NCBI GenBank assembly: GCA_964396965.1
Contig: CAYNGD010000007.1
Coordinates: 22,941-86,940 of the forward strand
Reading direction: 5' to 3'
Length of the DNA: 64,000 nt
From: an uncultured Dehalococcoidales bacterium
GTDB lineage: Bacteria; Chloroflexota; Dehalococcoidia; Dehalococcoidales; BS750m-G39
Position 1 is the stretch's first letter, and each line of letters opens with the position of its first letter. The notes below the pieces were generated by a model. That model did no database searches. It saw only the letters and a list, made by a program, of their open reading frames with translations, and was not told where the DNA came from. A program made the translations under genes and the position numbers. This document shows, one piece after another, positions 29,620-44,627 of the stretch.

Positions 29620-30285
29620 ATGAGCAATATTAATGTGCTTCTGGCTGAGGACCACGTGATAACGCGGCAGGGCATCCGCCGGCTTATCGAGGACGAGAAG
29701 GGGATTACCGTTGTCGGCGAGGCCAGCAACGGCGAGGAAGCGGTGCAGATGACCACCGAGCTTAAACCGGATATCGTCATCATGGACGTCGCCATGCCCA
29801 AGCTCAACGGCATCGAGGCCACCCGGCAGATAAAGCTAATCAGCCCTCGCACCGCAGTGCTTATCTTAAGCGCCTATGACGACGACGAGTACGTCTTCGC
29901 CCTGCTCAAGGTGGGCGCCGCCGGCTACCTGCTCAAGAATGTCAGCGGCGATGAGCTCACCCGCGCCATCCGGGCGGTGTACAAGGGTGAGCCCGTCCTC
30001 GACCCTATGGTCGCCCGCAAGGTCATGAACTACTTTAAACTGCCAGATAAGACGCGGGGGCTGGACAGGCCCTCCGAGCACCTGAGCAGCCGCGATACCG
30101 ACATCCTCAAGCTGGCGGCCAAGGGCATGACCAATAAGGACATCGCCGATAAGCTTCACCTGAGCAGCCGCACCGTCGAGGGCCACCTGAGAACCGTCTT
30201 CAACAAGCTCGGCGTTGGCTCCCGCACCGAGGCGGTGCTCTACGGCCTGAGAAAGGGCTGGTTCACCCTGGAAGAGCTGCCTTGA
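29620..30285 (+). CDS. NarL/LuxR-family response regulator
   Basis: Canonical receiver (LLAEDH, DIVIMDVAMP, LILSAY, GYLLK) plus a C-terminal LuxR HTH (LSSRDTDILKLAAKGMTNKDIADKLHLSSRTVEGH). Confidence 0.9.
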   Translation: MSNINVLLAEDHVITRQGIRRLIEDEKGITVVGEASNGEEAVQMTTELKPDIVIMDVAMPKLNGIEATRQIKLISPRTAVLILSAYDDDEYVFALLKVGAAGYLLKNVSGDELTRAIRAVYKGEPVLDPMVARKVMNYFKLPDKTRGLDRPSEHLSSRDTDILKLAAKGMTNKDIADKLHLSSRTVEGHLRTVFNKLGVGSRTEAVLYGLRKGWFTLEELP

Positions 30286-30317
30286 CTCTCTTCATTTAAG
30301 ATAGCGGAGTAATAGCT

Positions 30318-31787
30318 ATGCCACTGAGTCTATTAGGTTCCGAGATGCTGGCCAAGATTATTGATGGTTCCCCTATCCCATCATTTGTAATCAATAAGCA
30401 ACATAAAGTAGTGTACTGGAACACAGCGATTGAGGCCCTCTCTGGCATAGGAAGTAAGGAGATAATCGGGACAGATAAGCAATGGAGGGCGTTTTACGCG
30501 GGAAAGAGGCCAGCTATGGCCGACTTAATAGTGGACGGAGCACCGGCAAACGAAATTGAAGCCCATTATCCAGGTAAATGTAAAATATCCCACTTAATAG
30601 ATGGTACTTATGAAGCTGAAGATTTTTTCCCAGATCTTGAGAGGAATGGAAAGTGGCTCCATTTCACAGCAATTCCCATAAGAGATAACACTGGAAAGAT
30701 AATAGGTGCCATAGAGACCCTGGAAGATATCACCGAGCGAAAGCGTGCTGAGGAGGCACTACATGAGTCAGAGAAAAGCTTCAGGGCTTTATTCGAGGGT
30801 GCCTATGATGCCATCTGGGTTCACGATTTAGAGGGTAACATTCAAACTGCGAATAAGGCGGCGGCGGAACTTGGTGGTTACCCTGTAGTAGAACTGGTGG
30901 GGATGAATGTAAAGTCATTTCTCAGTGATGAAAGCCTGAAGCTGGCAAGAGAGGTGAGCCATAAGCTAACCGAACACCAGCCCATAGACCTCCCCTACGA
31001 ATTAAGGTTAATTAGGAAGGATGGCTCGGAGGCAATATGCATGGTTTCTACCAACTTGATTACCAGCGATGGTGAGCCAAAGGGTTTTCAGAACATCGCT
31101 AGAGACGTTACTCAAGAGAAGCGAATGCAGGAAAATGTGCGCTACTACCTGCAGCAGATAACCAGGGCCCAAGAAGAGGAGCGAAAACGTATCGCCCGGG
31201 AGCTTCATGATGATACGGCCCAGGTGCTGGGTTCTCTCTCGCGGCAATTGGACAATTTCATTCGCAAGAAGCATGGTCTGGCACCTAGTGAGGTCTTGTT
31301 CCTTAAAGACCTGCAGGCTCAGCTTAATCGTGGAGTGCAGGGTGTGCACCGTTTCATTCAGGACCTGCGCCCATCATTACTGGACGATTTAGGTTTAATC
31401 CCGGCGTTAAGGTCGTTAATGAAGGATCTACAAGAGTACGATGGGATAAGTACAAGCCTAAATGTGTTTGGCGGAGAAAGACGTTTCTCGTCTGAAGTTG
31501 AGTCATTGCTCTTCCGCATTGTCCAGGAGGCGCTCAACAATATTAGGCGGCATGCCCAGGCCTCGGAGGCCCGGGTGGTAATGGAGTTCATGGCAGATGA
31601 GGTGAGGGTGACCGTAACCGATAACGGGCGAGGGTTTGAGCTGCGTGGGGACGTGGACGACCTTCCCCGCATTGGTAAGCTGGGGCTGGCCGGGATGCAG
31701 GAGAGGGCGCGGCTGCTGGGCGGCACCCTTGAGGTCAACTCGGTACCGGGCCAGGGGACGACGCTGGTGGTAGATGTGCCCGGCTAG
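30318..31787 (+). CDS. PAS-domain sensor histidine kinase (HisKA_3 + HATPase_c)
   Basis: Two PAS-like regions, H-box ARELHDDTAQVL, N/G boxes QEALNNIRRHA and DNGRGF...GLAGMQERARLLGG. Confidence 0.88.
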   Translation: MPLSLLGSEMLAKIIDGSPIPSFVINKQHKVVYWNTAIEALSGIGSKEIIGTDKQWRAFYAGKRPAMADLIVDGAPANEIEAHYPGKCKISHLIDGTYEAEDFFPDLERNGKWLHFTAIPIRDNTGKIIGAIETLEDITERKRAEEALHESEKSFRALFEGAYDAIWVHDLEGNIQTANKAAAELGGYPVVELVGMNVKSFLSDESLKLAREVSHKLTEHQPIDLPYELRLIRKDGSEAICMVSTNLITSDGEPKGFQNIARDVTQEKRMQENVRYYLQQITRAQEEERKRIARELHDDTAQVLGSLSRQLDNFIRKKHGLAPSEVLFLKDLQAQLNRGVQGVHRFIQDLRPSLLDDLGLIPALRSLMKDLQEYDGISTSLNVFGGERRFSSEVESLLFRIVQEALNNIRRHAQASEARVVMEFMADEVRVTVTDNGRGFELRGDVDDLPRIGKLGLAGMQERARLLGGTLEVNSVPGQGTTLVVDVPG

Positions 31788-33526
31788 GGTGAGTAGTAGC
31801 CTGCCCAGAGCCCGCTGAAGAAGCGGCGGGCATTTATGCCCAGCACCCTGGTATCATAGCCGCCTTCCTGAACGACCAGCGTCGGCAGGTGCAGTTCACC
31901 GATCAGCCTGCCCACCGCCTCAAAATCGTCAGCCTCAAGGCTCCAGCTTCCGGTGGGGTCTTCCTTGGCGGTATCCAGTCCCAGCGCCACGATGAGAAAC
32001 TGGGGACGGAAGCGGGCGACCCGTCTCAGCGCCTCGCTCAAGACCTGCTGGTATCTCTTACCCTCAAACTCTTCAGCTAAGAGGGGGATATTTATATTGT
32101 AGCCCTTGCCCGCCCCTTCTCCCTTCTCGTCAGCAAAGCCGCTGAAGTAGGGATAGGCATAACGGGGATGCCGGTGGATGGACAGGGTCAGGACGTCAGG
32201 CCGTTCGTAGAATATGTCCTGCTGACCGTTGCCGTGGTGATAGTCGATATCCAGGATGGCCACCCTGCCGTAGGCGCTCAAATACTGGGCGGCCACCGCC
32301 GCCGAGTTGAAGTAGCAGAAGCCGCCGAAGGAACGGCGCCCGGCGTGGTGACCAGGCGGGCGCACCAGGGCGTAGGCCAGCCGGTAGCCCTCCAGGATTT
32401 GCTCGGCGGCGGTCAGGGTGCAGTCCACCGCCCGCTTGGCGGCCAGGTAGGCGTTGCCGTTTATCGGGGTAAAGGTGTCGATGCAGTAGTAGCCGGCGCG
32501 GACGGCGAGCTCCCTGGGGGGGCGGGCGATGTTGCGGATGGGGAAGACATAGGGGTAGACGGACTGCCCCGCCGCAAGGCCAGCACAGACCTTCCTGAAA
32601 TAGTCAACGAACTGGCTGTCGTGCACCGTCTTGATATAGCGCTCGGAGAAGTGGCGGGGGGCAACCCTGTTAAACAGCCCCGTCTTGTCCAGCTCCTTTA
32701 TGATGGCGTCTATCCTCACCGGCGATTCAACATAGCCCAGTTCTTCGACGTGGTGGATGAGGTGGCGGTCGTTGATGACCAGGACAACCTGCTTGTCCAC
32801 CGCTACCGTCCGGCGGGGCAAGAGCGGCGCCTTCTTGATATACCTCGGCTCACGCAGGCGCACCGGGTCGTCCTGAAAGGAATCAACCACCATCTCAACG
32901 TAGCTGGGGGAAACCACCCCCCGGTATTTCCGCTCCAGCACCGCCCGGACCACCTCTCGGGCGACATCACGGGAAAGCCCGTCACCCTGCCCCAGGTCGT
33001 CATAGACCAGATAGGGGGGGTTGTCGCCGCCGGGCTTTAAGGGGGTCTCATACTTGGTGTTGACGATGGGGCGGGCGCCGTACCTCTCGTAGAAGCGCAG
33101 GCGGGCGGCATTTTGCTTCCGGACGAGCGGGTCTCGGCTTAAATGGGGGTCGTCGGGGAGGCACTCGAAGAAAAGGCCGATTAGGTTCAGGTCCAGCGCT
33201 TCCTCACGCACCCTTTCGTAGAGGGCGCCGCCGATGCCGCCGCCGGTTCTCCGCTCGGCGGCGGATATATAGTCCAGGTAGCCGAAGTGCAGGATAGGCT
33301 CGTGGTAGAGCAGGGCAAAGCCGATGATGCGCCCCTTCACCCCCTCGGCAACGAAAAGGATGGAGCGGAAGCGGTACTTCAGCGGGTTGCGCAGCTGCTC
33401 CGGCAGCTTGGCAATGTCCCTCTTTGAGAGGCCAGGAAACTGGGCGCGGAGAATCTCCTGAACCTGGGTGATGGCCTCCTTGTTGGCCGGGGTTATATCA
33501 TCGTGGACGCGGCGGATACGAAACAT
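31784..33526 (-). CDS. GNAT acetyltransferase fused to HDAC-family (acetylpolyamine amidohydrolase / AcuC-like) deacetylase
   Basis: 580 aa. The N-terminal ~190 aa carry GNAT motif A (RRTGGGIGGALYERV). The C-terminal ~340 aa carry the HDAC zinc site (HHAGRRSFGGFCYFN, ILDIDYHHGNGQQDIF). Confidence 0.85.
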   Translation of the reverse strand: MFRIRRVHDDITPANKEAITQVQEILRAQFPGLSKRDIAKLPEQLRNPLKYRFRSILFVAEGVKGRIIGFALLYHEPILHFGYLDYISAAERRTGGGIGGALYERVREEALDLNLIGLFFECLPDDPHLSRDPLVRKQNAARLRFYERYGARPIVNTKYETPLKPGGDNPPYLVYDDLGQGDGLSRDVAREVVRAVLERKYRGVVSPSYVEMVVDSFQDDPVRLREPRYIKKAPLLPRRTVAVDKQVVLVINDRHLIHHVEELGYVESPVRIDAIIKELDKTGLFNRVAPRHFSERYIKTVHDSQFVDYFRKVCAGLAAGQSVYPYVFPIRNIARPPRELAVRAGYYCIDTFTPINGNAYLAAKRAVDCTLTAAEQILEGYRLAYALVRPPGHHAGRRSFGGFCYFNSAAVAAQYLSAYGRVAILDIDYHHGNGQQDIFYERPDVLTLSIHRHPRYAYPYFSGFADEKGEGAGKGYNINIPLLAEEFEGKRYQQVLSEALRRVARFRPQFLIVALGLDTAKEDPTGSWSLEADDFEAVGRLIGELHLPTLVVQEGGYDTRVLGINARRFFSGLWAGYYSP

Positions 33527-33547
33527 AGCTCAAAATCCCTCCGGCTT

Positions 33548-34153
33548 TTAGCCGGTCACCGCCTTAATTATACCGGTCAGCTCCAGCCCGTGTATAACCA
33601 TGCTGATGGCGATGGCCGCCAGCAGCAGGCTGAACACCCGGGAAATCGCCCTCAGGCCTCCCTGCCCCAGAACACGGGCCACCTGCTCCCCCCCCAGAAA
33701 GATGCCCCAGGTGATGGCCATGTTCAGGGTGAAGGAGATGAGCACCATATAGAGGGGGAACTGGGTGGCCAGGAGCAGCAGGGTGGTTATGGTGGCCGGG
33801 CCGACCGTCAGCGGGGTGCCGATGGGCACCACCGCCACCAGCTCCTCCTTGACAGCTTCCACCATGTGGCCGGTGGTCATGTACTTGATGGCGAAGGCCA
33901 GCAGGATTATGCCGCCGGCGATGGCGAAGGAGCCCACCGAAATCCCCATTAACTTCAGAATCAGCTGGCCGAAGAATAAAAAGAAAAGGCCGACGATGAT
34001 AGCGGTCAGGATAGCCAGGTGAATCATACGGTGGCGCTGGGGCCTGATCATATCCTCGCTCATGGCAAGCACGAAGGGCAGGTTGCCCAGGGCGTCGATA
34101 ACGATAAACAGCGGGACGAAGGTTACGATGAAGTTTTGCAGAAGGCTGCCCAT
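33548..34153 (-). CDS. MarC / UPF0056 family integral membrane protein
   Basis: 201 aa with six predicted TM segments. N-terminal FVPLFIVIDALGNLPF is typical of the MarC family. Its ATG overlaps the upstream stop by 1 nt. Confidence 0.75.
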   Translation of the reverse strand: MGSLLQNFIVTFVPLFIVIDALGNLPFVLAMSEDMIRPQRHRMIHLAILTAIIVGLFFLFFGQLILKLMGISVGSFAIAGGIILLAFAIKYMTTGHMVEAVKEELVAVVPIGTPLTVGPATITTLLLLATQFPLYMVLISFTLNMAITWGIFLGGEQVARVLGQGGLRAISRVFSLLLAAIAISMVIHGLELTGIIKAVTG

Positions 34154-34647
34154 TAAGATTGCCCTTCCGGCTCAAGACGTTTCTGCAGAATAACCTTATC
34201 GTCGCCGGGGGCGTAGAAATCGGGGAGGCGGGCTATAACCTGGTAGCCATGCTTTGTGTAAAAGCGTCGGGTCTTTTCGTAGCTTTCCTGAGAGGATGTT
34301 TCGATGATTACCAGCCGACCTTTAGCCTCTCTGATTCTGTCCTCGGCATAGGCCATAAGAGCCCCGCCCACGCCCCTCCCCTGCTCCCCAGCCGCCACCG
34401 CTATCCAGTAAACGTCCCAGGTACCATCGGTGAGGGGGGTAGGGCCATAGCAGATATAGCCTTTAATGGCCGCGCCGTCCTCAGCGGCCAGTACGTGGTA
34501 GCCTGAGCCAGCCGGACCGGCCAGGTAGCTGTCGATGACCTCCTCAGCCACCACCACCTCAGCCGGCTTGAACTCAGGCAGGCCGCGCAGCAGCGCCATC
34601 ACGGCCGAATTGTCCCTTTTCAGCATCGGGCGTATCCTGACCGCCAT
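34153..34647 (-). CDS. GNAT family N-acetyltransferase
   Basis: 164 aa with motif A QGRGVGGALMAYAE. The N-terminus MAVRIRPMLKRDNSAV is typical of GNATs. Confidence 0.8.
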   Translation of the reverse strand: MAVRIRPMLKRDNSAVMALLRGLPEFKPAEVVVAEEVIDSYLAGPAGSGYHVLAAEDGAAIKGYICYGPTPLTDGTWDVYWIAVAAGEQGRGVGGALMAYAEDRIREAKGRLVIIETSSQESYEKTRRFYTKHGYQVIARLPDFYAPGDDKVILQKRLEPEGQS

Positions 34648-35638
34648 CCTCTTTGTTCTCCAGGGCCAGTTCTACAATCCTACCGATAAACTGCGGGTAG
34701 GTCATGCCGGCGGCCTCGGCCTGCCGCACCGCCCCCGAGCCGGGGGAGATATCGGGGTTGGGGTTGGCCTCGATAACATTAAGCTGCCCCGCCTCATCCC
34801 GCCGCATATCAACTCTAGCATAGCCGCGGCAGCCGAGCAAGCCGAGGGCGGCAAGGGCGGTTTTAGCGATTTCCTCCCTCTCGCTGTCTTCGATTTGGGC
34901 CGGGCAAATTACCTTAGTACCCTGAAAATATTCGCTTTCGGGCTGCCACTTGGCAGCGAAGGTGAGCAGGCGGGGCACCCCCTCCGGCAACGAGTAATCT
35001 ATCTCGGAAACGGGCAGGACGGTATCACCGAGCACGGTAGCGTTGAACTCGTGGCCTTCGATGAAATGCTCAACCAGGGCCTGCCCGCCGTAGTAGCGGC
35101 TGACCGCGGTCACCTGCTTTTCCAACGAGGCAAAGTCACTGACCACGTTCTGCGCCGAGAGCCCGTGGCTGGCGTCCTCACGGCGGGGCTTGACGATGCA
35201 GGGGTAGCTCAGGTGGAAGCTGGAGAGATTCTCCGGCCGGAGCAGCTGGAAATCGGGGGTGGCAATACCGGCGTTCTTTAAGAGCGCCTTGGTCCTGGCC
35301 TTGTCCAGGGCTAATTTGAGGGCCGCGGCAGAACAGCCGGTGAAGGGCAGTTTGAGCGCCGCTAGCATTTCGACTATCTCGGCCTCTGTCTCCGGGTGGC
35401 CGGCAAAGCCCTCGAAGAGATTGAAGACCAGGTCGGCCTTCAGGGCAGCCAGCCTTTCCCGGGCGCGGGGCAGGGGCGGCACCAGGGGGAGCTTGACCAC
35501 GCCGTAGCCTGATTTGAGCAGGGCATCCTCCACCGCCTCCACCGCCTCAAGGACACCGCTGACGGCGGCCCGCTCACCGCGCTCGTCATAGCGGCTCTTC
35601 AGGGGTTCGTTATAGACGATGGCTACACGGCGACGCAC
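34574..35638 (-). CDS. D-alanine--D-alanine-ligase-like ATP-grasp amidoligase (paralog 2)
   Basis: 354 aa with Ddl-family architecture (FNLFEGFAGHPETEAEIVEMLAALKLPFTGCS; ATP-grasp core with ARVDMRRDEAGQLNVIEANPNP). Its 3' end overlaps the GNAT start by 74 nt. Confidence 0.8.
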   Translation of the reverse strand: MRRRVAIVYNEPLKSRYDERGERAAVSGVLEAVEAVEDALLKSGYGVVKLPLVPPLPRARERLAALKADLVFNLFEGFAGHPETEAEIVEMLAALKLPFTGCSAAALKLALDKARTKALLKNAGIATPDFQLLRPENLSSFHLSYPCIVKPRREDASHGLSAQNVVSDFASLEKQVTAVSRYYGGQALVEHFIEGHEFNATVLGDTVLPVSEIDYSLPEGVPRLLTFAAKWQPESEYFQGTKVICPAQIEDSEREEIAKTALAALGLLGCRGYARVDMRRDEAGQLNVIEANPNPDISPGSGAVRQAEAAGMTYPQFIGRIVELALENKEDGGQDTPDAEKGQFGRDGAAARPA

Positions 35639-36621
35639 GGAGAGTACCTTTTCAAGGCGGCCTCAAAGACTGCCTGTATCAGCCCCTGTTGCGTCCAGCC
35701 CAGCTTCTGGGCCATGATAATCAGGTCGCTGTAACTGCCCAGCCCGGGCAGGGGGTTTATCTCCAGGAAATAGGGAATTCCACCTGGGCCGATTCTGAAG
35801 TCGATACGGGCGAAGTCTCGGCAACCCAAGACTTTAAAAACCTTGAGGCTGGCCAGAGCAATCCTCTCATTAACCTCGTCGGCCAGCCTGGGGGGAGACT
35901 CGTAGTCAACCAGGTTGAGGTAATCTCGCTTTACCTCCAGTGAGTAGACGAAGTGCCCCTCACTTTTCCGGGGCAGGATGCGCATCAGGCCCACCAGGCG
36001 GGGCGGAGCATTGCCGATAATACCGGCGGTGACCTCGTCACCGCTGATGAACTCCTCAGCCATCACCGGCTGCCGGTAATCGTTAAGCAGGCGGCTCACC
36101 TCTCTGGTCATCTCCTCCCGGCTTTCCACCACCGAGCTGGAGCGGATGCCCTTGCTCGAGCCTTCGTAGGCCGGCTTGACGATGGCCGGGAATTTCTCCC
36201 AGGCTAGTTTACCCAGCTCCTCCTCGTCGTTTACCATCTGCCACTGCGGAGTAGCGATACCTTCGGCGGCCACCAGCCTCTTGGCTAGCGGTTTGTCCAG
36301 GCAGACGGTCAGGCAGTGGGAGTCCGAGCCGGAATAGAGGATGCCCAGCATCTCCAGAACAGCCGGCACCTGGGACTCGCGGCTGCGTGAGCTGCCCCTC
36401 CCCTCGGCGATGTTAAAAACGATGTCAACCTTCTCCCGCCGTATGTTGTCCAGGAACTCCTCGCCCCCGCCCAGCAGCACCACCGAGTGTCCGGCGGCAG
36501 CCAGCGCGGCAGCGATAGTCTCCACCGTCTCCCGGGAGTCATACTCCTCTAAAGCGTCTTCGGGGGCGGCGGCGTCCAAGGGTATGGCTGACTTAAGATC
36601 GTAGGCTAAGCCTATCCGCAT
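35623..36621 (-). CDS. D-alanine--D-alanine-ligase-like ATP-grasp amidoligase (paralog 1)
   Basis: 332 aa (FNIAEGRGSSRSRESQVPAVLEMLGILYSGSD; ARIDFRIGPGGIPYFLEINPLPG). It overlaps both neighbouring genes. Confidence 0.8.
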   Translation of the reverse strand: MRIGLAYDLKSAIPLDAAAPEDALEEYDSRETVETIAAALAAAGHSVVLLGGGEEFLDNIRREKVDIVFNIAEGRGSSRSRESQVPAVLEMLGILYSGSDSHCLTVCLDKPLAKRLVAAEGIATPQWQMVNDEEELGKLAWEKFPAIVKPAYEGSSKGIRSSSVVESREEMTREVSRLLNDYRQPVMAEEFISGDEVTAGIIGNAPPRLVGLMRILPRKSEGHFVYSLEVKRDYLNLVDYESPPRLADEVNERIALASLKVFKVLGCRDFARIDFRIGPGGIPYFLEINPLPGLGSYSDLIIMAQKLGWTQQGLIQAVFEAALKRYSPCVAV

Positions 36622-37948
36622 CCCTGGTTCCTGCCTTCTTGACCGCTACCGGCACCTTAACCGACAAGGGCAGTTGCGCCGGCACTGGCTTGGCCCTGGC
36701 CTTCAGCCTGGGGTTGTGGCAGTGGTAGATATGGCCGCGGTAGTTCCTCACCAGAATCCTGTCCCCGTTCTGAGAGAGGATATAGTTGGGCTGCACCGGC
36801 ACCTTGCCCCCTCCCTGGGGCAGGTCAATAACGAAAGTGGGCACCGCCAGCCCCGAGGTGTGGCCGCGCATACCCTCGATTATATCCAGGCCAGTTGCCA
36901 GCGGCGTGCGCAGGTGCTCCGTCCCCTCCACCTCGTCACACTGGAAGAGGTAGTAGGGTCGCACCTTAATCCTTAGCAGCCCCTGGCACAGTTTGGTCTG
37001 TGCCTCCACACTGTCGTTGATGCCGCGCAGCAGCACGCTCTGGTTGTTCACCGGGACGCCGCTCCGCACCAGCCTGTCGCAGGCGGCAGCTGCCTCCGGA
37101 GTTATCTCGCGGTAGTGGTTGAAATGGGTGTTGAGCCATATCGGGCCATATCTGGAAAGCATGGCGCAAAGCTCGTCATCGATGCGCTGGGGCAGCACCA
37201 CCGGGAAGCGGCTGCCGATGCGGATAATCTCGACGTGCTCTATCTGCCGCAAGCTGCCGATAACGCCCTCAAGGTGGTGGGTGGATAGAGTCAAGGGGTC
37301 ACCGCCGGAGATGACCACATCCCTGACCGCCTTATGATTGCGGATGTAGTCCAGCATGGCCTCAATTTCGCCGAGGGTGCGCACCCAACCGCCATGCCTC
37401 CACTCCCGCTTGCGGGTGCAGTGGCGGCAGAGCATGGGGCAGATATCGGTCAGCACCATTAAAACACGGTCGGGGTAGCGGTGTACCAGTCCGGGGACAA
37501 CCGAGTCCCTCTTCTCCTCAAGGGGGTCTTCGCTGCCGATTCCGGCCAGGGCTATCTCCTCAAAGGCGGGCACGGACTGAAGCCGAATGGGGTCTTGGGG
37601 GTCATCGGGGTCAATCAGGGAAAGATAATAAGGGGTTATTGCCAGCGGGTACTTGATGGTGACCAGCCTGAGCCTGGCCTGTTCTTCAGCAGTCAGGGGT
37701 ATATAGCTGGCCAGTTGTTCGACGGTGGTGATGCGGTGGCGGAAGTGCCACCTCCAGTCTTTCCAGAGGCTATCGGGTATGTGCCCAAAGAATCTTCGTC
37801 TCTGGGCGCTGGTACTGGGAGGTTCCCCCTCCGGGGTGGTAACTATAGCTGCGCCGGGAGGTTCCTCCTCGGCCTCAGCCGCGGTCTCTATAGAATATTT
37901 TTCCGCCCTCAGGGCGGGTTGTTTTTTAATTATTCCAGGTGCTTTCAC
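36593..37948 (-). CDS. kamA: KamA-family radical-SAM aminomutase (lysine 2,3-aminomutase-like)
   Basis: Radical-SAM CPMLCRHCTRKR, plus WKDWRWHFRHRITTVEQL, AITPYYLSLIDP, HRYPDRVL, VRPYYLFQCD and FVIDLPQGGGK. GTG start. The first ~60 aa form a low-complexity N-terminal extension. Confidence 0.88.
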   Translation of the reverse strand: MKAPGIIKKQPALRAEKYSIETAAEAEEEPPGAAIVTTPEGEPPSTSAQRRRFFGHIPDSLWKDWRWHFRHRITTVEQLASYIPLTAEEQARLRLVTIKYPLAITPYYLSLIDPDDPQDPIRLQSVPAFEEIALAGIGSEDPLEEKRDSVVPGLVHRYPDRVLMVLTDICPMLCRHCTRKREWRHGGWVRTLGEIEAMLDYIRNHKAVRDVVISGGDPLTLSTHHLEGVIGSLRQIEHVEIIRIGSRFPVVLPQRIDDELCAMLSRYGPIWLNTHFNHYREITPEAAAACDRLVRSGVPVNNQSVLLRGINDSVEAQTKLCQGLLRIKVRPYYLFQCDEVEGTEHLRTPLATGLDIIEGMRGHTSGLAVPTFVIDLPQGGGKVPVQPNYILSQNGDRILVRNYRGHIYHCHNPRLKARAKPVPAQLPLSVKVPVAVKKAGTRDADRLSLRS

Positions 37949-38041
37949 CTTTTTTATGTTCTCCTCTAGTGTTAGATTTCAGTATTTCAGGCTCGTTTAT
38001 GAGGTCACATCTTCGGTTTTTACCCCCTATAAACAAAAAGA

Positions 38042-38082
38042 GTTAGGAAATACTTGTCCTAACCTTCTTTTCCTGTTATAAT
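38042..38082 (+). promoter_or_regulatory. inverted repeat overlapping a sigma70-like promoter in the kamA / wHTH divergent region
   Basis: GTTAGGA-N8-TCCTAAC at 38042-38063 overlaps a -35-like TTGTCC (38054-38059). After N17 comes TATAAT (38077-38082) with an extended TG. Confidence 0.35.
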
Positions 38083-38189
38083 ATACACTAAATATATTTC
38101 CTAAATAAATTATACACATTTTGTACCGGTTGTCAATAGGATTTTAGTTATTTTTGACAGCCGATTAGCTGGAAGCAGGAGGTGTCAGA

Positions 38190-38498
38190 ATGGGGGAATG
38201 GAAATTCATCACCAACCACGCCCTGGTGTTCTGCCTGATTGCCCAGCAGCCGCGAAGCACCGCCCGGGAGATCGCCGCCACCATAGGCATTACCGAGAAG
38301 ACAACACGCAATATTATTAATGACCTTGAGGCCGATGAATACATAACCAAGACCAAGGAGGGACGGCGCCTGCGTTACAGCATAGACCCGGAGATGCCCC
38401 TCCGCCACGAGCTGCACGAAGACAAGTCGGTGGGCGACCTGCTGGAAATTCTGGGCTGGGAGAAGCGGCGCCGGAGGGTAAAGAGCGCCGCCGGCTAA
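38190..38498 (+). CDS. small winged-helix (MarR/ArsR-like) DNA-binding protein
   Basis: 102 aa with an HTH around STAREIAATIGITEKTTRNIINDLEADEYITKTKEGRR. GGAGG SD upstream. Divergent from the kamA operon. Confidence 0.65.
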   Translation: MGEWKFITNHALVFCLIAQQPRSTAREIAATIGITEKTTRNIINDLEADEYITKTKEGRRLRYSIDPEMPLRHELHEDKSVGDLLEILGWEKRRRRVKSAAG

Positions 38499-38512: not shown

Positions 38513-39523
38513 TTACAGCTCCCAGAAGCTGCGCAGCTCCCGGAAGTCAATCAAGCCGTTCTCGGCGACATTTTCAATCTCGATACCGGCCTCAACGGCG
38601 GCCGCCACCGGATTAAGACCGCCGAGCTGGACGATACCAACCCGGTTCAGGGCCACCGGAATCTGGCAGAGCGGCTCGCTGGTACCGCCAACGGCAAAGA
38701 TGCCGCCGATGCCGACCTCCTTGAGCCGGGCTATCCTCTCCTCGACAACCTCCCGGGCCGGTGCCGGCACCGTCCGGAAAACGCCCAGTATCTTGCCGCT
38801 CCCCGTACTAGCGGCCTTGCCGACGCTGGTCATCCTGGCCTGGATGAACTGCTCGGAAGGGTCAACCGAGGTACCGGCATAGTCAATTATGGCGACAAAG
38901 CGCCTGGGCTTTAGATTTCTAACCTCAAGCAGGCCGCCAAAGCGGAACTCCACCGGCACCCCTGCCTTGAGCAGCACGCCGTTTGTGGCCACGCTGCAGA
39001 CGGTGGCCAGGCCAATCTTACCCTCGGGCACCACCGCCGTCCCCAGCTTCTCCCCCTCATTGGCGGTGGCCACCAACTCGCTGACGCAGAGCCCGGATTT
39101 AAAGGCGCCCTTCATCACCGCCAGCGCCTTCTTGAACTGCTCCCTATCGATGAGCGAGGTGTTTATCGGTAATTGGCCGCTGCCCTTTTCCGGGTCGAAA
39201 CTGGTCTGGTAGGCCAGCAGCTCCAGCTTATCGCGCACAAAGCCGAGGTGCTGAGGGGCCAGGGCCTCCTTGACCTCCCGCCGCCCTTCCTCAGTAATCA
39301 TCCGCCCATCCCGTCCGGCGGGCTGGGTATAGCCGCGTTCGTCGGCTATCTTCAGGTGATACCTCACCCCCCGCTCGCTCAAGAAAACCCCTTCGTCCTC
39401 AAGCCGGCGGGCAATAGTGATTGAACCCAGTGGTTCCGAGGACTCGCTCAAGACCTTGAGAATAGATATTAGCTTACCTTCGGCGTCGGAACCAACGACC
39501 TGTTCCGCCATCAGCCTCGCCAC
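38513..39523 (-). CDS. nrpR: NrpR-type nitrogen repressor homolog (wHTH + one DUF128/NRD domain)
   Basis: 336 aa. N-terminal wHTH (LISILKVLSESSEPLGSITIARRLEDEGVFLSERGVRYHLK), then a DUF128-like body. It is the last gene of the nitrogen cluster. GTG at 39523 or ATG at 39511. Confidence 0.72.
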   Translation of the reverse strand: MARLMAEQVVGSDAEGKLISILKVLSESSEPLGSITIARRLEDEGVFLSERGVRYHLKIADERGYTQPAGRDGRMITEEGRREVKEALAPQHLGFVRDKLELLAYQTSFDPEKGSGQLPINTSLIDREQFKKALAVMKGAFKSGLCVSELVATANEGEKLGTAVVPEGKIGLATVCSVATNGVLLKAGVPVEFRFGGLLEVRNLKPRRFVAIIDYAGTSVDPSEQFIQARMTSVGKAASTGSGKILGVFRTVPAPAREVVEERIARLKEVGIGGIFAVGGTSEPLCQIPVALNRVGIVQLGGLNPVAAAVEAGIEIENVAENGLIDFRELRSFWEL

Positions 39524-39541
39524 CCCCTGCCGTTTTCCCGC

Positions 39542-39570
39542 ATTATACCACGCCCGCTCACAAAGCTGTA
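39542..39570 (-). promoter_or_regulatory. extended -10 promoter (TGGTATAAT) with upstream TACAGCTTTGTGA element
   Basis: Read on the minus strand: TACAGCTTTGTGA (39558-39570), 7 nt, TGGTATAAT (39542-39550), then about 18 nt to the nrpR start. Confidence 0.3.
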
Positions 39571-39572
39571 GC

Positions 39573-41573
39573 TTAAGGCTGCTTACCAGCCGGGCGCAGC
39601 TTGTGGTACATAGTCTCTAAATCTTCGAGCCACAGCTGGTCTTGAGCCTCCGAGGGCATTCTCCAGTCCCCCCGGGGGGAGAGGCTCACCGAGCCTACCT
39701 TCGGCCCCTCGGGCAGGCAGGTCCTCTTGAACTGGTTGGCGAAGAAGCGGCTGATGAAACTCTTCAGCCACTTATACAGGTCGTCCAGAGAGTACTTGCC
39801 TTCAAAAAGCCCCTGCCGGCTCACCTCGTTGGCCAGGTAGAGAATCCGGCCTGGCCTCATGCCGAAGCGGATGAAGGGATAGAGGTAGAAATCGGCCAGC
39901 TCAAACGGCCCGATAAGCTCCTCGCTCTTCTGCCTTATCAGGCCGTTTTCGGGCCGGATTAACTCCGGGGAGATCGGGGTCTTAAGAATATCATACAATA
40001 CCTTCTGGGCCGGTGTGCCGGCCATCTCTTCATCGGCCACCCAGCGCACCAGAAAGCTCACCAGGGTCTTGGGCACCGAGGCGCTGACGTGGTAGTGTGA
40101 GATGTGGTCTCCGGCGAAGGTGCACCAGCCCAGGGCAATCTCGGTGAGGTCGCCCGTCCCCAGCACGATGCCGTCGAGCTGGTTAGCCTTGTTAAAGAGG
40201 AACTCGGTGCGGTAGCGGGCCTGGACGTTCTCGAAAACCACATCCTCCCCGCCGTCGTGCTCCAGGTCTTTCAGGTGCGAGTTGCAGCTCCGGCTGATGT
40301 TCACCCGGTCCAGGCTCACCCCCAGTGCCTGGCACAGCCTGGTGGCGTTAGCCCTGGTCCTCCGGGTAGTCCCAAAACCGGGCATGGTGAAGGCATGGAC
40401 ACTGGTCCGCGGCAGCTTGAGAAAGTCTATCGTCTTGGCGGCAACCAGCAGTGATAGTGTGGAATCAAGGCCACCGGAGACCCCCAGCACCAGCCGGCTC
40501 TTCTTAGCGCCGGCCAGCTTCTGAGCGAGCGCCCCCACCTGCATGGCAAAGATTTCGCGGCAGCGGTCTGCCCTTCTCGCCGGCTCCTCGGGGACAAAGG
40601 GATGGGGGTCGAGCGTCCGCTCCAGACGGCGAGGGGAGAGGTCGCTGACCTCGGCCTCGACCACCCGGCAGGCTTCCACGCCGGCCGCCTGCTCCCGAAA
40701 GCTGGTCATCACGCTGCGGTCGTGCCCAAGCCGCTCCAGGTCAATATCGACCACGATAAGCCGGGAATCCGGCGACAAGCGCGCCGATTCCCTTAATATC
40801 GTCCCGTTCTCAGCGATGATGATATGACCGCCGTAGACCAGGTCGTTGGATGACTCCCCGATGCCAGATGAGACATAGCAGTAGGCGGCGATGCACCGGC
40901 CTGACTCCGAAGAGACCATTGTCCGGCGCCAGTCCGCCTTGCCCAGCACCTCGTTGCTCGCCGAGAGGTTGACCAGCACCGTCGCCCCGGCCAGCGCCTG
41001 GTACTCGTGAGGGGCCAGCGGCACCCACAGGTCCTCACAGATCTCAACACCGATGATAGCGGATTTAATTCCGCGCAGTCTGAAGAGAATGTCGCTGCCA
41101 AAAGGAACTTCCTGGCCGGCCAGCTCGACGAGAGTGGAACCGACCTCGGTAGCCGGGGCAAACCAGCGGTCTTCGTAGAACTCCCGGTAGCCGGGCAAAA
41201 GGGTCTTGGGGATAACCCCCAGAATACGGCCAGAGTTCAGGACCACAGCACAGTTAAAAATCTTCTGCTCGACCACGAGGGGCAGCCCCACCATCACCAC
41301 CATCGCCCTCCTGGCGCTCTCCGCCAGAACCGCCTCCAGCCCCTTCTCCGCCTTGGCCAGCAGCGCCCGGTGCTGGACCAGGTCACCGAGGGTATAGCCG
41401 GTGATAGCCATCTCGGGAAAAGTGAGCACCTGCACCCCCTGCTCCCCGGCCTTCCTCATGGTGCTGATAATTGCTTTAACGTTAAAATCAACGTCGGCCA
41501 GGCGGAGCGCGGGCACCGCCCCGCCGATGCGCAGAAAACCGAGATCGCTATTCAGTTGAACGCCTTCAGCCAC
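39573..41573 (-). CDS. nadE: glutamine-dependent NAD+ synthetase (nitrilase domain + NAD synthetase domain)
   Basis: 666 aa. CN-hydrolase catalytic Cys in VEICEDLWVP and the PP-loop GVSGGLDS. GTG start with a GGAAGGGGG SD. Confidence 0.9.
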   Translation of the reverse strand: MAEGVQLNSDLGFLRIGGAVPALRLADVDFNVKAIISTMRKAGEQGVQVLTFPEMAITGYTLGDLVQHRALLAKAEKGLEAVLAESARRAMVVMVGLPLVVEQKIFNCAVVLNSGRILGVIPKTLLPGYREFYEDRWFAPATEVGSTLVELAGQEVPFGSDILFRLRGIKSAIIGVEICEDLWVPLAPHEYQALAGATVLVNLSASNEVLGKADWRRTMVSSESGRCIAAYCYVSSGIGESSNDLVYGGHIIIAENGTILRESARLSPDSRLIVVDIDLERLGHDRSVMTSFREQAAGVEACRVVEAEVSDLSPRRLERTLDPHPFVPEEPARRADRCREIFAMQVGALAQKLAGAKKSRLVLGVSGGLDSTLSLLVAAKTIDFLKLPRTSVHAFTMPGFGTTRRTRANATRLCQALGVSLDRVNISRSCNSHLKDLEHDGGEDVVFENVQARYRTEFLFNKANQLDGIVLGTGDLTEIALGWCTFAGDHISHYHVSASVPKTLVSFLVRWVADEEMAGTPAQKVLYDILKTPISPELIRPENGLIRQKSEELIGPFELADFYLYPFIRFGMRPGRILYLANEVSRQGLFEGKYSLDDLYKWLKSFISRFFANQFKRTCLPEGPKVGSVSLSPRGDWRMPSEAQDQLWLEDLETMYHKLRPAGKQP

Positions 41574-43062: not shown

Positions 43063-44627
<1,565 letters not shown>

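What the first reader, a model, noticed from the sequence alone, without database searches (positions are those of the whole stretch)
31784..37948. Overlapping six-gene operon (KamA aminomutase, two Ddl-like ATP-grasp ligases, GNAT, MarC, GNAT::HDAC): candidate pathway for an acetylated beta-lysine peptide
What the sequence shows:
- Six minus-strand CDS are packed with overlaps: 29 nt at 36593-36621, 16 nt at 35623-35638, 74 nt at 34574-34647 and 1 nt at 34153. Only a 21-nt gap precedes the last gene. They look like one translationally coupled unit.
- Gene 1 is a KamA-family radical-SAM aminomutase (CPMLCRHCTRKR).
- From memory, the two Asp that bind the lysine epsilon-amino group in Clostridium lysine 2,3-aminomutase sit in ..QCD.. 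and ..VVDAPGGGGK. Both appear conserved here (FQCDEVEG, FVIDLPQGGGK). That favours a basic substrate such as lysine over glutamate.
- Genes 2 and 3 are paralogous D-Ala-D-Ala-ligase-like ATP-grasp amidoligases.
- Gene 4 is a 164-aa GNAT.
- Gene 5 is a MarC/UPF0056 membrane protein. That family includes an archaeal small-amino-acid transporter.
- Gene 6 fuses a GNAT to an HDAC/acetylpolyamine-amidohydrolase-type deacetylase.

Known systems cover only parts of this combination:
- AblA/AblB (aminomutase + acetyltransferase) make the osmolyte N-epsilon-acetyl-beta-lysine in methanogens.
- Ngg (GNAT + ATP-grasp) makes the acetylated dipeptide osmolyte NAGGN.
- EpmB/EpmA beta-lysylate EF-P.
- Streptothricin producers acetylate beta-lysine for self-resistance.

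Inference: the operon may assemble an N-acetylated beta-lysine-containing di- or tripeptide without ribosome or NRPS. The product could be a compatible solute, a nitrogen store or a bioactive compound. The operon would also supply a dedicated membrane component and a deacetylation or turnover enzyme. It directly abuts the nitrogen-control locus.
Basis: partly seen in the sequence, partly recalled or inferred. Interest (0 to 1): 0.8.

Follow-up and report, generated by a model that had tools for sequence, protein, structure and literature searches.

The report
Conserved beta-lysine ligase–acetyltransferase gene cluster
A lysine-to-beta-lysine enzyme, two ATP-driven amide-bond ligases and an acetyltransferase form a gene cluster conserved across several bacterial phyla, and it probably makes a still-unidentified acetylated beta-lysine compound without ribosome or NRPS.

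Summary

**Operon structure.** It is a strict four-gene core, KamA–AG1–AG2–GNAT. In 80 Dehalococcoidia/Chloroflexota genomes AG1 is present in 76/76 loci, AG2 in 70/70 and GNAT in 67/67. The accessory parts are MarC (22/63), GNAT::deacetylase (11/52) and a divergent wHTH regulator (49/76). Adjacency to the nitrogen locus is incidental (1/61).

**Enzymes.**
- KamA keeps every lysine-binding residue of Clostridium lysine 2,3-aminomutase. It is not EpmB.
- Both ligases keep all ATP-grasp catalytic residues. They fail the Ddl family cutoffs and lack Ddl substrate residues.

**New findings.**
- The small GNAT is an ortholog of PDB 2R7H (Dde_3044, Oleidesulfovibrio alaskensis G20).
- The same cluster, often with the GNAT::deacetylase, occurs in Desulfovibrio, Woeseia and other Gammaproteobacteria, and on a Spirochaetales contig.
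- Natural KamA::AG1 and AG1::AG2 fusion proteins exist.

**Conclusion.** These results support a dedicated pathway that makes an N-acetylated, amide-linked beta-lysine product. The product and its physiological role (osmolyte, exported metabolite or other) remain unknown. I found no description of the cluster in the searchable literature.

The parts
36593..37948 (-). kamA: lysine 2,3-aminomutase-type radical-SAM/PLP enzyme (451 aa). First gene of the core.
   Evidence: It scores 454 bits and is 55% identical to Clostridium LAM (2A5H). The Cx3Cx2C motif, R179, D338, D375 and K382 are conserved. It is below the AblA, Glu-AM, Arg-AM and EpmB equivalog cutoffs.
37814..37876 (-). Part of the KamA N-terminal extension carrying two acidic E-E-P-P-[GS] motifs (aa 25-32 EAEEEPPG, aa 40-45 EGEPPS). 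Function unknown.
   Evidence: An E(x)PP motif is present in 69/69 Dehalococcoidia cluster KamAs, in the Desulfovibrio, Woeseia and L088 KamAs, and in KamA::AG1 fusion P0503. It is absent from Clostridium LAM.
35623..36621 (-). AG1: Ddl-like ATP-grasp carboxylate-amine ligase (332 aa), with orthogroup signature E73, R81, D299.
   Evidence: All ATP, Mg and catalytic residues are invariant in 67 orthologs. Its Ddl subfamily score is 162 bits against a cutoff of 243. It occurs naturally fused to KamA (P0424, P0453, P0503) and to AG2 (P0385).
34574..35638 (-). AG2: second Ddl-like ATP-grasp ligase (354 aa), 28% identical to AG1, with orthogroup signature E76, A156, W231, G302.
   Evidence: It forms a separate orthogroup from AG1 across phyla.
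34153..34647 (-). Small GNAT N-acetyltransferase (164 aa). Ortholog of PDB 2R7H / Dde_3044.
   Evidence: (121 bits, E 5e-34). It does not hit the AblB model.
33548..34153 (-). MarC/NAAT-family membrane protein (201 aa). Accessory transporter.
   Evidence: TIGR00427 at 120 bits against a cutoff of 99. It is present in 22/63 loci.
31784..33526 (-). GNAT::acetylpolyamine-amidohydrolase-type deacetylase fusion (580 aa). Accessory gene, and the most conserved protein of the system across phyla.
   Evidence: APAH at 245 bits against HDAH at 130. The N-terminal domain is predicted as a GNAT fold with pLDDT 92.6. It lies next to the core in 11/52 Dehalococcoidia loci and in L085, L086, L088, L092 and L094. 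It is 59-64% identical across phyla.
38109..38136 (-). Promoter of the kamA operon: TTGACA-N16-TATAAT (12/12 matches), giving a 5' UTR of about 150 nt.
   Evidence: The CTATTGACAA…TGTATAAT block is conserved upstream of kamA in related loci.
38054..38082 (+). Promoter-like element facing the wHTH gene (TTGTCC-17-TATAAT with TG), overlapping the conserved motif TATAACAGGAA (38070-38080, minus strand). Probably a divergent promoter/operator module.
   Evidence: The motif occurs in 23/38 loci with an adjacent HTH gene and in 0/38 without one.
38190..38498 (+). Divergent winged-HTH regulator (102 aa, HTH_24/MarR_2-like). Presumed local regulator.
   Evidence: It is found upstream and divergent in 49/76 loci and in L001, L002 and L004.

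Best explanation
This is a dedicated biosynthetic module, independent of ribosome and NRPS, for a small beta-lysine-derived amide.

**Step 1 (well supported).** KamA isomerises L-lysine to beta-lysine (3,6-diaminohexanoate) by radical-SAM/PLP chemistry.

**Steps 2-3 (enzyme class shown, substrates inferred).** AG1 and AG2 are two catalytically intact Ddl-like ATP-grasp ligases. Each would form one amide bond through an acyl-phosphate intermediate. AG1 probably acts directly on the aminomutase product, because it is naturally fused to KamA in other organisms. AG2 probably acts with AG1, because the two are naturally fused elsewhere. The product would therefore contain beta-lysine and two amide bonds: a di- or tripeptide-like compound or a short beta-lysine oligomer.

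**Step 4 (inferred).** The small GNAT N-acetylates a free amine of the product or of an intermediate.

**Accessory functions (inferred).**
- The GNAT::APAH-type fusion adds or removes an acetyl group on an aminoalkyl chain, for example the N-epsilon position. This could serve turnover, a protecting-group cycle or activation.
- MarC, or in other genomes an ArsB-like or DHA2-type permease, moves the product or a precursor across the membrane.
- Expression is controlled locally: by a divergent wHTH in Dehalococcoidia and by a sigma54 enhancer-binding protein in Desulfovibrio.

**Open question.** The physiological role is not established. A compatible solute and an exported cationic metabolite are the two leading options.
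For: **Aminomutase**
- It is 55% identical (454 bits) to the solved Clostridium LAM. R134, D293, D330 and K337 are all conserved, both here and in the cross-phylum cluster copies.
- Its best equivalog model is AblA, at 479 bits.

**Ligases**
- K97, K144, E180, E187, R255, D257, E270 and N272 (DdlB numbering) are invariant or nearly so in 67 AG1 and 67 AG2 orthologs.
- Ddl substrate positions are replaced in an orthogroup-specific way. H63 is Glu in both; AG1 has E68 to Arg and L282 to Asp; AG2 has Y216 to Trp. These replacements hold across three phyla.

**Synteny**
- AG1 76/76, AG2 70/70 and GNAT 67/67.
- The same order is found in D. mangrovi, O. alaskensis G20, Woeseia, another Gammaproteobacteria MAG and further contigs.

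**Fusions**
- KamA::AG1, AG1::KamA-like and AG1::AG2 fusion proteins exist.

**Deacetylase**
- The domain is closest to acetylpolyamine amidohydrolases, which act on small molecules.
- The sequence shows the PGHHA, DIDYHHGNG, GLDTAKEDP and EGGY motifs. I recognise these from memory as the catalytic and Zn motifs of this family.

**Transporters**
- MarC occurs in 22 loci, an ArsB-like permease in 12 and a DHA2-like MFS in 7.
Against: - No product has been observed, and no enzyme of the cluster has been assayed.
- Substrate assignments for AG1, AG2 and both GNATs are inferences from context.
- The window KamA is closer to Clostridium LAM (55%) than to the KamAs of the Desulfovibrio and Woeseia clusters (43-46%). 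The cluster's evolutionary history is therefore not simple.
- Other basic amino acids cannot be excluded as substrate. The Arg-2,3-aminomutase model scores 407 bits.
- The conserved acidic EEPP tail on KamA is unexplained. It could mean that a protein-bound intermediate is involved.
- The deacetylase and the transporters are absent from the neighbourhood in most genomes.
Confidence: 0.6

Rival explanations
1. The module is simply a variant of the AblA/AblB osmolyte pathway. KamA plus the GNAT make N-epsilon-acetyl-beta-lysine as the end product. The two ligases either extend a fraction of it or serve another purpose.
For: - AblA is the best-scoring equivalog model for KamA.
- Having a GNAT in the same operon mirrors ablA-ablB.
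- The APAH-type deacetylase would suit an N-epsilon-acetyl-aminoalkyl group.
- Several carriers come from saline habitats, such as Woeseia and marine Desulfovibrio.
Against: - The GNAT does not hit the AblB model. It is RimI/2R7H-like, a different GNAT family.
- Both ligases are strictly co-conserved with KamA (76/76 and 70/70) and are catalytically intact.
- KamA::AG1 fusions place a ligase, not the acetyltransferase, directly after the aminomutase.
- Many carriers come from groundwater, peat and soil.
Confidence: 0.12
2. The module modifies a macromolecule. Beta-lysine is ligated by the ATP-grasp enzymes onto a protein. This could be an EF-P-like target, or the acidic EEPP tail of KamA acting as a LysW-like carrier. 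It would not be built into a free metabolite.
For: - ATP-grasp ligases such as RimK, LysX and TTLs do modify proteins (established knowledge).
- EpmB/EpmA set a precedent for protein beta-lysylation.
- A conserved acidic E-E-P-P tail is specific to cluster KamAs.
Against: - No EF-P or EpmA gene lies near any of 93 loci.
- The EpmB model scores far below its cutoff.
- AG1 and AG2 are Ddl-like, not RimK/LysX-like.
- The recurrent membrane transporters and the small-molecule-type deacetylase fit a free metabolite.
- Conditional regulators (wHTH, sigma54 EBP) are unusual for a housekeeping protein modification.
Confidence: 0.1
3. The two ATP-grasp genes are ordinary peptidoglycan D-Ala-D-Ala ligases, and the cluster is a chance or cell-wall-related juxtaposition.
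For: - Ddl models and Ddl structures are the best database hits.
- Only AG1 and AG2 match DdlB in the 64-kb window.
Against: - The scores (about 162 bits) are far below the Ddl subfamily cutoff (243) and the equivalog cutoffs.
- Ddl substrate residues H63, E68, Y216 and L282 are replaced in fixed, orthogroup-specific ways.
- No mur genes are adjacent.
- The ligases are strictly co-conserved with an aminomutase and a GNAT and are fused to them.
- 841 representative clusters are closer to AG1 than solved Ddl structures are.
Confidence: 0.02
4. The cluster is catabolic: the first steps of lysine fermentation or of acetyl-polyamine salvage.
For: - KamA is the first enzyme of clostridial lysine fermentation (established knowledge).
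- APAH enzymes are catabolic.
Against: - None of the downstream fermentation genes appears in any locus (beta-lysine 5,6-aminomutase, 3,5-diaminohexanoate dehydrogenase, and so on).
- ATP-consuming ligases and an acetyltransferase are biosynthetic.
Confidence: 0.03

Closest known systems
[quoted passage not shown]
   Same: - It pairs a lysine 2,3-aminomutase with a GNAT acetyltransferase in one operon.
- AblA is the best-scoring curated model for the KamA here.
   Different: - KamA is below the AblA equivalog cutoff (479 against 525). It lacks the C-terminal part of the model and has an extra N-terminal EEPP extension.
- The GNAT is not AblB-type.
- Two obligatory ATP-grasp ligases are added.
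NAGGN synthesis (Ngg GNAT/ATP-grasp enzyme plus AsnO) and mammalian NAAG synthesis (NAT8L plus RIMKLA/B)
   Same: The logic is the same: a GNAT plus one or more ATP-grasp ligases make an N-acetylated di- or tripeptide without a ribosome or NRPS (recalled from memory).
   Different: - Neither has an aminomutase or a beta-amino acid.
- Their ligases are RimK-like, not Ddl-like.
- I did not test sequence relationship here beyond the absence of such hits.
Pyrrolysine biosynthesis, PylB/PylC
   Same: A radical-SAM enzyme rearranges lysine, and a Ddl-related ATP-grasp ligase (PylC) then joins the rearranged product to an amine (recalled from memory).
   Different: - PylB belongs to a different radical-SAM family and makes 3-methylornithine.
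- The pathway has a single ligase and no GNAT.
- PylC structures did not appear among the PDB sequence hits of AG1 or AG2 at E<=1e-3.
D-alanine-D-alanine ligase (Ddl/VanA family)
   Same: - The fold and the full ATP-grasp catalytic apparatus are shared.
- Ddl gives the best sequence hits.
   Different: - AG1 and AG2 score below all curated cutoffs.
- The substrate-site residues are replaced.
- The N-terminal GGxSxE motif region does not align.
- The genomic context has no mur genes.
EpmB/EpmA beta-lysylation of EF-P
   Same: It uses a KamA-family aminomutase to supply beta-lysine.
   Different: - The EpmB model is far below its cutoff (229 against 369).
- There is no EpmA or EF-P nearby.
- The ligases here are ATP-grasp enzymes, not aaRS paralogs.
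Acetylpolyamine amidohydrolase (APAH), and the AcuA/AcuC GNAT-deacetylase pair
   Same: - The C-terminal domain of gene 6 is most similar to APAH structures 9GKZ, 6PHR and 3Q9B.
- Pairing a GNAT with an HDAC-fold deacetylase recalls AcuA/AcuC, and JGI names the fusion 'AcuC-like/GNAT'.
   Different: - Here the two activities are fused in one 580-aa protein that travels with the KamA-ligase cluster.
- Its GNAT domain has no sequence-detectable solved homolog. By fold it resembles the cluster's own small GNAT.

Membership tests
KamA family / lysine 2,3-aminomutase | Radical-SAM Cx3Cx2C cluster motif and PLP-binding lysine | tested here: met
   C170, C174 and C177 (CPMLCRHC) and K382 align with C125, C129, C132 and K337 of 2A5H. 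TIGR00238 scores 335 bits against a cutoff of 199.
KamA family / lysine 2,3-aminomutase | Lysine-specific pocket: two Asp binding the epsilon-ammonium (D293, D330) and an Arg binding the carboxylate (R134) | tested here: met
   D338, D375 and R179 align to these positions. They are invariant in 13 orthologs and conserved in 4 cross-phylum cluster KamAs. The roles of these residues are recalled from the 2A5H literature.
KamA family / lysine 2,3-aminomutase | Inter-subunit Zn site (C268 plus C-terminal Cys residues) of Clostridium LAM | tested here: not met
   The C268 position is Ser here and Asp or Asn in the other cluster KamAs. The alignment to 2A5H ends at residue 408, before the C-terminal Cys region.
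AblA equivalog (TIGR03820) | Score at or above the curated cutoff | tested here: not met
   478.6 bits against a cutoff of 525.4. Only model positions 5-362 of 417 are matched.
EpmB (EF-P beta-lysylation) | Score at or above the curated cutoff, with EpmA or EF-P in the genomic context | tested here: not met
   228.9 bits against a cutoff of 369.3. There were 0 EF-P hits in 93 loci plus the window.
Glutamate 2,3-aminomutase (TIGR04368) | Score at or above the cutoff, with the two Asp replaced by Lys and Asn | tested here: not met
   433.5 bits against a cutoff of 650. Both Asp residues are retained. The Lys/Asn replacement rule is recalled from memory.
ATP-grasp carboxylate-amine ligases | ATP-binding Lys residues, Mg-binding Asp/Glu/Asn and catalytic Arg | tested here: met
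   K97, K144, E180, E187, R255, D257, E270 and N272 (DdlB numbering) are invariant or nearly so in 67 AG1 and 67 AG2 orthologs, and also across phyla.
D-Ala-D-Ala ligase (Ddl) | Score at or above the curated subfamily or equivalog cutoffs | tested here: not met
   The best model is NF002378, at 161.7 bits (AG1) and 162.5 bits (AG2) against a cutoff of 243. All equivalog models are far below their cutoffs.
D-Ala-D-Ala ligase (Ddl) | Substrate-site residues: E15, S150 and Y216 triad, plus H63, E68, S281 and L282 | tested here: not met
   - H63 is Glu in both ligases.
- E68 is Arg in AG1, and Thr, Leu or Met in AG2.
- Y216 is Arg, Ala or Glu in AG1 and Trp in AG2.
- L282 is Asp in AG1 and Gly in AG2.
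- S150 is Ala in AG2.
- The E15 column depends on the alignment and is not conserved across the orthogroups.
AblB beta-lysine acetyltransferase | Hit to the AblB-type GNAT model | tested here: not met
   No AblB model appears among the NCBIfam hits at E<=0.01. The best hit is RimI, at 37.7 bits against a cutoff of 86.4. The closest solved relative is 2R7H.
GNAT acetyltransferases | GNAT fold with the acetyl-CoA-binding R/Q-x-x-G-x-G/A motif | tested here: met
   - Small GNAT: Pfam 1e-12 and the sequence QGRGVGG.
- Fusion N-domain: RRTGGGIGG, with G97 and G99 invariant in 45 sequences. The AF2 model has pLDDT 92.6 and matches GNAT structures.
Acetylpolyamine amidohydrolase / HDAC fold | Hist_deacetyl domain with the His-His dyad, Asp-His-Asp Zn ligands and catalytic Tyr, closest to APAH | tested here: met
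   PF00850 hits at 1.4e-78. APAH structures score 245-208 bits against about 130 for HDAH. The motifs PGHHA, DIDYHHGNG, GLDTAKEDP and EGGY are visible in the translation. Their assignment as catalytic motifs rests on established knowledge.
MarC / NAAT transporters | Score at or above the TIGR00427 cutoff | tested here: met
   120.1 bits against a cutoff of 99.2. The transported substrate is not testable here.

The most novel reading that the evidence does not exclude
The cluster makes a previously unknown class of beta-lysine-based oligoamide, a polyamine-like or N-capped beta-peptide. The compound would be widespread in anaerobic and sediment bacteria of several phyla. It would be assembled on or next to the aminomutase itself, with the conserved acidic EEPP tail of KamA acting as a docking or carrier element for the two ligases. 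The GNAT and GNAT::APAH enzymes would run an acetyl protect-and-deprotect cycle coupled to export.
Probability: 0.15. Interest if true: 0.85.

Novelty: new variant of a known kind. Interest (0 to 1): 0.62.

Why it matters
**Scientific value.** If the prediction holds, this would be a new route, free of ribosome and NRPS, to beta-amino-acid-containing metabolites. It would assign a function to three things:
- a large family of 'Ddl-like' ligases that annotation pipelines routinely label as D-alanine-D-alanine ligase or leave unassigned. 841 representative clusters are closer to AG1 than solved Ddl structures are;
- a widespread GNAT::deacetylase fusion;
- an orphan structural-genomics entry, 2R7H.

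**Ecological reach.** The pathway occurs in hundreds of Dehalococcoidia species. These bacteria are abundant in sediments and aquifers and are mostly uncultured. Its product could matter for stress physiology or for interactions in those habitats.

**Testability.** The cluster also occurs in cultured organisms, including the genetically tractable Oleidesulfovibrio alaskensis G20. The hypothesis can therefore be tested directly.

Tried and rejected
1. **Riboswitch or attenuator in the roughly 150-nt kamA leader: rejected.**
   - Rfam found nothing, either at gathering thresholds for the whole window or at E<=1 for 37850-38250.
   - The conserved leader block tracks the presence of the divergent HTH gene (23/38 against 0/38). 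It coincides with that gene's predicted -35 and extended -10 elements.
   - The 3' arm of the hairpin plus T-run at 38064-38041 is not conserved in close relatives such as L005 and L008.
2. **Functional link to the NrpR/GlnA/Amt nitrogen locus: rejected.** NrpR is adjacent in 1/61 loci.
3. **EF-P modification: rejected as the main reading**.
4. **Genuine Ddl: rejected**.
5. **My recollection that Rodionov et al. 2004 placed kamA and Ddl-like genes in the Desulfovibrio LysX regulon: wrong.** The paper does not mention them.
6. **Iyer/Aravind 2009 amidoligase paper.** I could not retrieve it under the PMC id I remembered, so it remains unchecked.
7. **Literature searches.** Ten searches found only the canonical AblA/AblB pathway and nothing on this cluster. 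The terms combined aminomutase, beta-lysine, ATP-grasp, Dehalococcoidia, Chloroflexi, Desulfovibrio and sigma54.
8. **Sequence search of the fusion's N-domain against the PDB.** It found nothing, so I used fold prediction instead.
9. **Sigma54 pattern counts in L085 and L089.** They are not above chance overall. Only the position of the one-mismatch sites upstream of kamA is suggestive.

Full report
**1. Observation**

The ORF scan lists six minus-strand ORFs at exactly the coordinates given: 36593-37948, 35623-36621, 34574-35638, 34153-34647, 33548-34153 and 31784-33526. They overlap by 29, 16, 74 and 1 nt, and a 21-nt gap precedes the last gene.

Pfam and NCBIfam confirm every family assignment:
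- a KamA-family radical-SAM aminomutase;
- two proteins with the Ddl C-terminal ATP-grasp domain;
- a small GNAT;
- a MarC/NAAT membrane protein;
- a fusion of a GNAT with a histone-deacetylase-fold domain.

The scan found no minus-strand terminator-like site inside the block. The start codons are supported by N-terminal homology to orthologs and to natural fusion proteins.

**2. The aminomutase**

The protein aligns over residues 50-408 with the only solved relative, Clostridium subterminale lysine 2,3-aminomutase (2A5H), at 454 bits and 55% identity.
- The Cx3Cx2C motif is conserved.
- So are the carboxylate-binding Arg (R134, here R179), the PLP lysine (K337, here K382) and both Asp residues that hold the lysine epsilon-ammonium group (D293 and D330, here D338 and D375).
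- These residues are invariant in 13 orthologs.

Among curated models AblA scores best, at 479 bits. The protein still falls below the cutoffs of all four equivalog models: AblA, glutamate 2,3-aminomutase, arginine 2,3-aminomutase and EpmB. Only the generic KamA subfamily model is passed.

Two features set it apart from classical LAM:
- The Zn-site cysteine C268 is replaced.
- A conserved N-terminal extension of about 50-65 residues carries acidic E-E-P-P-[GS] motifs.

**3. The ligases**

AG1 and AG2 are 28% identical to each other and 22-29% identical to E. coli DdlB. I mapped DdlB residues onto 67 orthologs of each.
- All ATP-binding, Mg-binding and catalytic residues are invariant or nearly so. 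Both are therefore predicted to be active ligases.
- They are not D-Ala-D-Ala ligases. Their best Ddl model score is 162 bits against a cutoff of 243.
- HMMER alignments to Ddl structures begin only around residues 55-68 of the Ddl chain, so the N-terminal substrate motif region does not align.
- Ddl substrate positions carry fixed, orthogroup-specific replacements:
  - H63 is Glu in both.
  - AG1 has E68 to Arg and L282 to Asp.
  - AG2 has S150 to Ala, Y216 to Trp and L282 to Gly.
- These signatures persist in Desulfovibrio and gammaproteobacterial copies. The AG1/AG2 duplication therefore predates the spread of the cluster.
- The new invariant acidic residues fit amine-bearing substrates, but that is inference.
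- The E15 column differed between my two alignments, so I do not rely on it.

**4. Conservation within Chloroflexota**

Homologs of KamA at 65-92% identity are abundant in metagenomes. A scan of one genome per species found 446 genomes carrying a relative with the clade-specific peptides HCTRKREW or GPIWLNT[HQ]. The best 80 are all Dehalococcoidia/Chloroflexota MAGs, from marine sediment, groundwater, peat, lakes and soil. Two are labelled deltaproteobacteria and are probably mis-binned.

I ran tblastn of the window proteins against these loci and counted only loci with enough flanking sequence:

| Gene | Loci with the gene / informative loci |
|---|---|
| AG1 | 76/76 |
| AG2 | 70/70 |
| GNAT | 67/67 |
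| MarC | 22/63 |
| GNAT::deacetylase | 11/52 |
| divergent small wHTH | 49/76 |
| NrpR | 1/61 |

The unit is thus a strict four-gene core with variable accessories. The adjacency to the nitrogen-control locus in this window is real (NrpR, NAD synthase, GlnA, Amt) but incidental.

Other neighbours recur in subsets of loci:
- an ArsB/CitMHS-type permease in 12 loci, usually directly upstream on the same strand;
- a DHA2/EmrB-like MFS in 7 loci;
- two small proteins of unknown function.

**5. Beyond Chloroflexota**

The small GNAT has one strong solved relative: 2R7H, at 121 bits and E 5e-34. This is Dde_3044 of Oleidesulfovibrio (Desulfovibrio) alaskensis G20.

Searching with that sequence showed the GNAT family in Desulfovibrio species, Woeseia and other Gammaproteobacteria, Planctomycetota and Spirochaetales. 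The genomic contexts were as follows:
- D. mangrovi complete genome: sigma54-EBP | KamA-AG-AG-GNAT-GNAT::deacetylase.
- G20-type contigs: sigma54-EBP | KamA-AG-AG-GNAT.
- A 3.7-Mb chromosome and a Gammaproteobacteria MAG: KamA-AG-AG-GNAT::deacetylase-GNAT.
- Woeseia: the same, with a fragmentary second ligase.
- A Spirochaetales contig: cut at AG-GNAT.
- One more contig: KamA-AG-AG-GNAT.
- A Planctomycetota contig: the GNAT alone.
- A 2.5-Mb chromosome: what looks like a decayed copy, with two ligase genes and a truncated fusion and no KamA.

Identity to the window proteins is 45-48% for KamA, 35-36% for AG1, 30-33% for AG2 and 40-49% for GNAT. For the fusion protein it is 59-64%, which makes the fusion the most conserved component.

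**6. Natural fusions**

I searched AG1 against 1.84 billion representative proteins. This gave 841 clusters at E<=1e-30, which is closer than any solved Ddl (about 1e-27). Many of the best hits are long proteins. Pfam scans and inspection of their sequences show the following:
- KamA::AG1 fusions: P0424, P0453 and P0503.
- A reversed AG1::aminomutase fusion: P0486. Its aminomutase has Gln at the D293 position.
- An AG1::AG2 fusion: P0385.
- Tandem AG1-like fusions: P0374, P0375 and P0376.

The KamA::AG1 fusions retain the LAM active-site residues and the AG1 signature. This is independent evidence that the ligase works directly with the aminomutase, and that the two ligases work together.

**7. 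The deacetylase fusion**

- The C-terminal domain matches acetylpolyamine amidohydrolases (9GKZ, 6PHR, 3Q9B) at 208-245 bits. Protein-type bacterial HDAH scores about 130 bits.
- The sequence shows the expected His-His, Asp/His/Asp and Tyr motifs.
- The N-terminal 245 residues have no solved homolog detectable by sequence.
- That N-terminal domain is 54-86% identical across many phyla.
- With a 45-sequence alignment, AlphaFold2 gives a confident model, with pLDDT 92.6 and pTM 0.90.
- Foldseek places the model among GNATs. The cluster's own small GNAT (2R7H) has the highest target-normalised TM-score (0.80) and the lowest rmsd (3.3 Å) among the 50 listed hits.

The system can therefore carry two acetyltransferase domains and one small-molecule-type deacetylase.

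**8. Regulation**

- A perfect TTGACA-N16-TATAAT promoter lies at 38136-38109 on the minus strand.
- A conserved block in the leader (TATAACAGGAA…GGTTAGGACAAGT) coincides, on the plus strand, with a predicted TTGTCC-17-TGTTATAAT promoter facing the wHTH gene.
- That motif occurs only in loci with the adjacent wHTH gene: 23/38 against 0/38.
- I read this as a compact divergent promoter/operator module, not an RNA switch. Rfam finds nothing there.
- In Desulfovibrio, one-mismatch sigma54 -24/-12 elements (TGGCAT-N5-TTGC) sit just upstream of kamA, next to the EBP gene.
- This is only suggestive, because such matches are not enriched overall.

**9. Mechanism**

- *Shown by sequence:* a lysine-type 2,3-aminomutase, two intact ATP-grasp ligases that are not Ddl, an intact GNAT, an APAH-type deacetylase with a GNAT domain, strict co-conservation, and gene fusions.
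- *Inferred:* lysine is converted to beta-lysine. AG1 and AG2 each form an amide bond involving beta-lysine. The GNAT caps a free amine. The fusion protein adds or removes an acetyl group on an aminoalkyl group. The transporters move the product or a precursor.
- *Open:* the physiological role.
  - The osmolyte analogy (AblAB, NAGGN) is attractive. However, carriers are not restricted to saline habitats.
  - Two of the three recurrent transporter types belong to efflux families. That fits an exported, possibly cationic, product at least as well.
- The conserved EEPP tail on KamA is unexplained.

**10. Comparison and novelty**

- AblA/AblB shares the aminomutase-plus-GNAT idea but lacks the ligases and uses a different GNAT family.
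- NAGGN and NAAG synthesis share the GNAT-plus-ATP-grasp logic but have no beta-amino acid.
- PylB/PylC shares the pairing of a radical-SAM lysine rearrangement with a Ddl-like ligase.
- EpmB/EpmA and Ddl fail their membership tests.

Ten full-text searches found no description of this cluster (section 11 gives the limits of that search).

I rate it a new variant of a known kind: ATP-grasp-based small-peptide or amide biosynthesis. It is widespread, and it can be tested in cultured Desulfovibrio.

**11. Limits**

- Only open-access literature could be searched.
- The Iyer/Aravind amidoligase survey could not be retrieved.
- I could not search whole genomes for a separate ddl gene.
- The roles of the LAM and Ddl residues, and the DdlB N-terminal sequence, come from memory. 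DdlB residues 55-305 were verified.
- No chemistry was observed.

Noticed in passing
window 37814-37876 (KamA aa 25-45); also L085, L086, L088, L089 and P0503: Cluster-associated KamAs carry an N-terminal extension with acidic E-E-P-P-[GS] motifs. There are two in the Dehalococcoidia examples I inspected and at least one in the distant phyla. Clostridium LAM has none. The motif persists even in a KamA::AG1 fusion. Its function is unknown; it could be a docking or carrier element.
   Followed up: partly
window 38040-38140: This is a compact divergent promoter module. The consensus kamA promoter (38136-38109, minus strand) and a promoter-like element for the wHTH gene (38054-38082, plus strand) would give overlapping 5' ends. 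The conserved TATAACAGGAA motif occurs only where the wHTH gene is adjacent (23/38 against 0/38).
   Followed up: yes
window 38513-44627 (minus strand): A nitrogen locus lies directly beyond the wHTH gene: NrpR (38513-39523), glutamine-dependent NAD synthase (39573-41573), glutamine synthetase (41640-42983) and an ammonium transporter (43398-44627). An NrpR-type regulator in a Chloroflexota genome may be of interest in itself. Its adjacency to the cluster is not conserved (1/61).
   Followed up: partly
window 29620-31787 (plus strand): A LuxR-type response regulator and a PAS/HisKA_3 histidine kinase converge on gene 6. The kinase ORF and gene 6 overlap by 4 nt at their 3' ends (31784-31787). 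No link to the cluster was seen in other loci.
   Followed up: no
window 33567-33596 (minus strand): A promoter-like site (TATACA-18-TATAAT, 10/12) lies inside the 3' end of marC, about 40 nt upstream of the GNAT::deacetylase start. The accessory gene may also be transcribed on its own.
   Followed up: no
P0486 (695 aa): This is a reversed AG1::aminomutase fusion. Its aminomutase has Gln instead of the first epsilon-amine-binding Asp (YQCQLIQG) and an altered CxxxCxxC context (CRHCLRRDRF). It may be a sister system acting on a different amino acid.
   Followed up: no
L089 5465-6919 and L090 843-2426 (O. alaskensis G20-type contigs): The called kamA ORFs (484 and 527 aa) probably start too early. 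A sigma54-like TGGCAT-N5-TTGC element at L089 5488-5502 lies inside the called ORF, upstream of an in-frame Met (residue 35) that precedes the conserved AEPPSL motif.
   Followed up: partly
L094 7137-9999 (2.5-Mb chromosome, GCA_041299705.1): This looks like a decayed copy of the module: a truncated ligase (242 aa), a full ligase (341 aa) and a truncated GNAT::deacetylase (332 aa). There is no KamA. M20 peptidase genes lie downstream on the opposite strand.
   Followed up: no
L019, L032, L035, L052, L062, L080 (about 4.3-4.5 kb downstream of kamA, opposite strand): A B12-binding radical-SAM protein with DUF4070 recurs downstream of the core in one Dehalococcoidia sub-clade (7 loci). Its relevance to the pathway is unknown.
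   Followed up: no
L020, L021, L028, L029, L050, L051, L071, L072, L075 (directly upstream of kamA, same strand): Two families of small proteins of about 100-110 aa replace the wHTH gene immediately upstream of kamA in some loci. One is weakly DUF5752-like (E 8e-4, below the cutoff). The other has no Pfam hit.
   Followed up: partly
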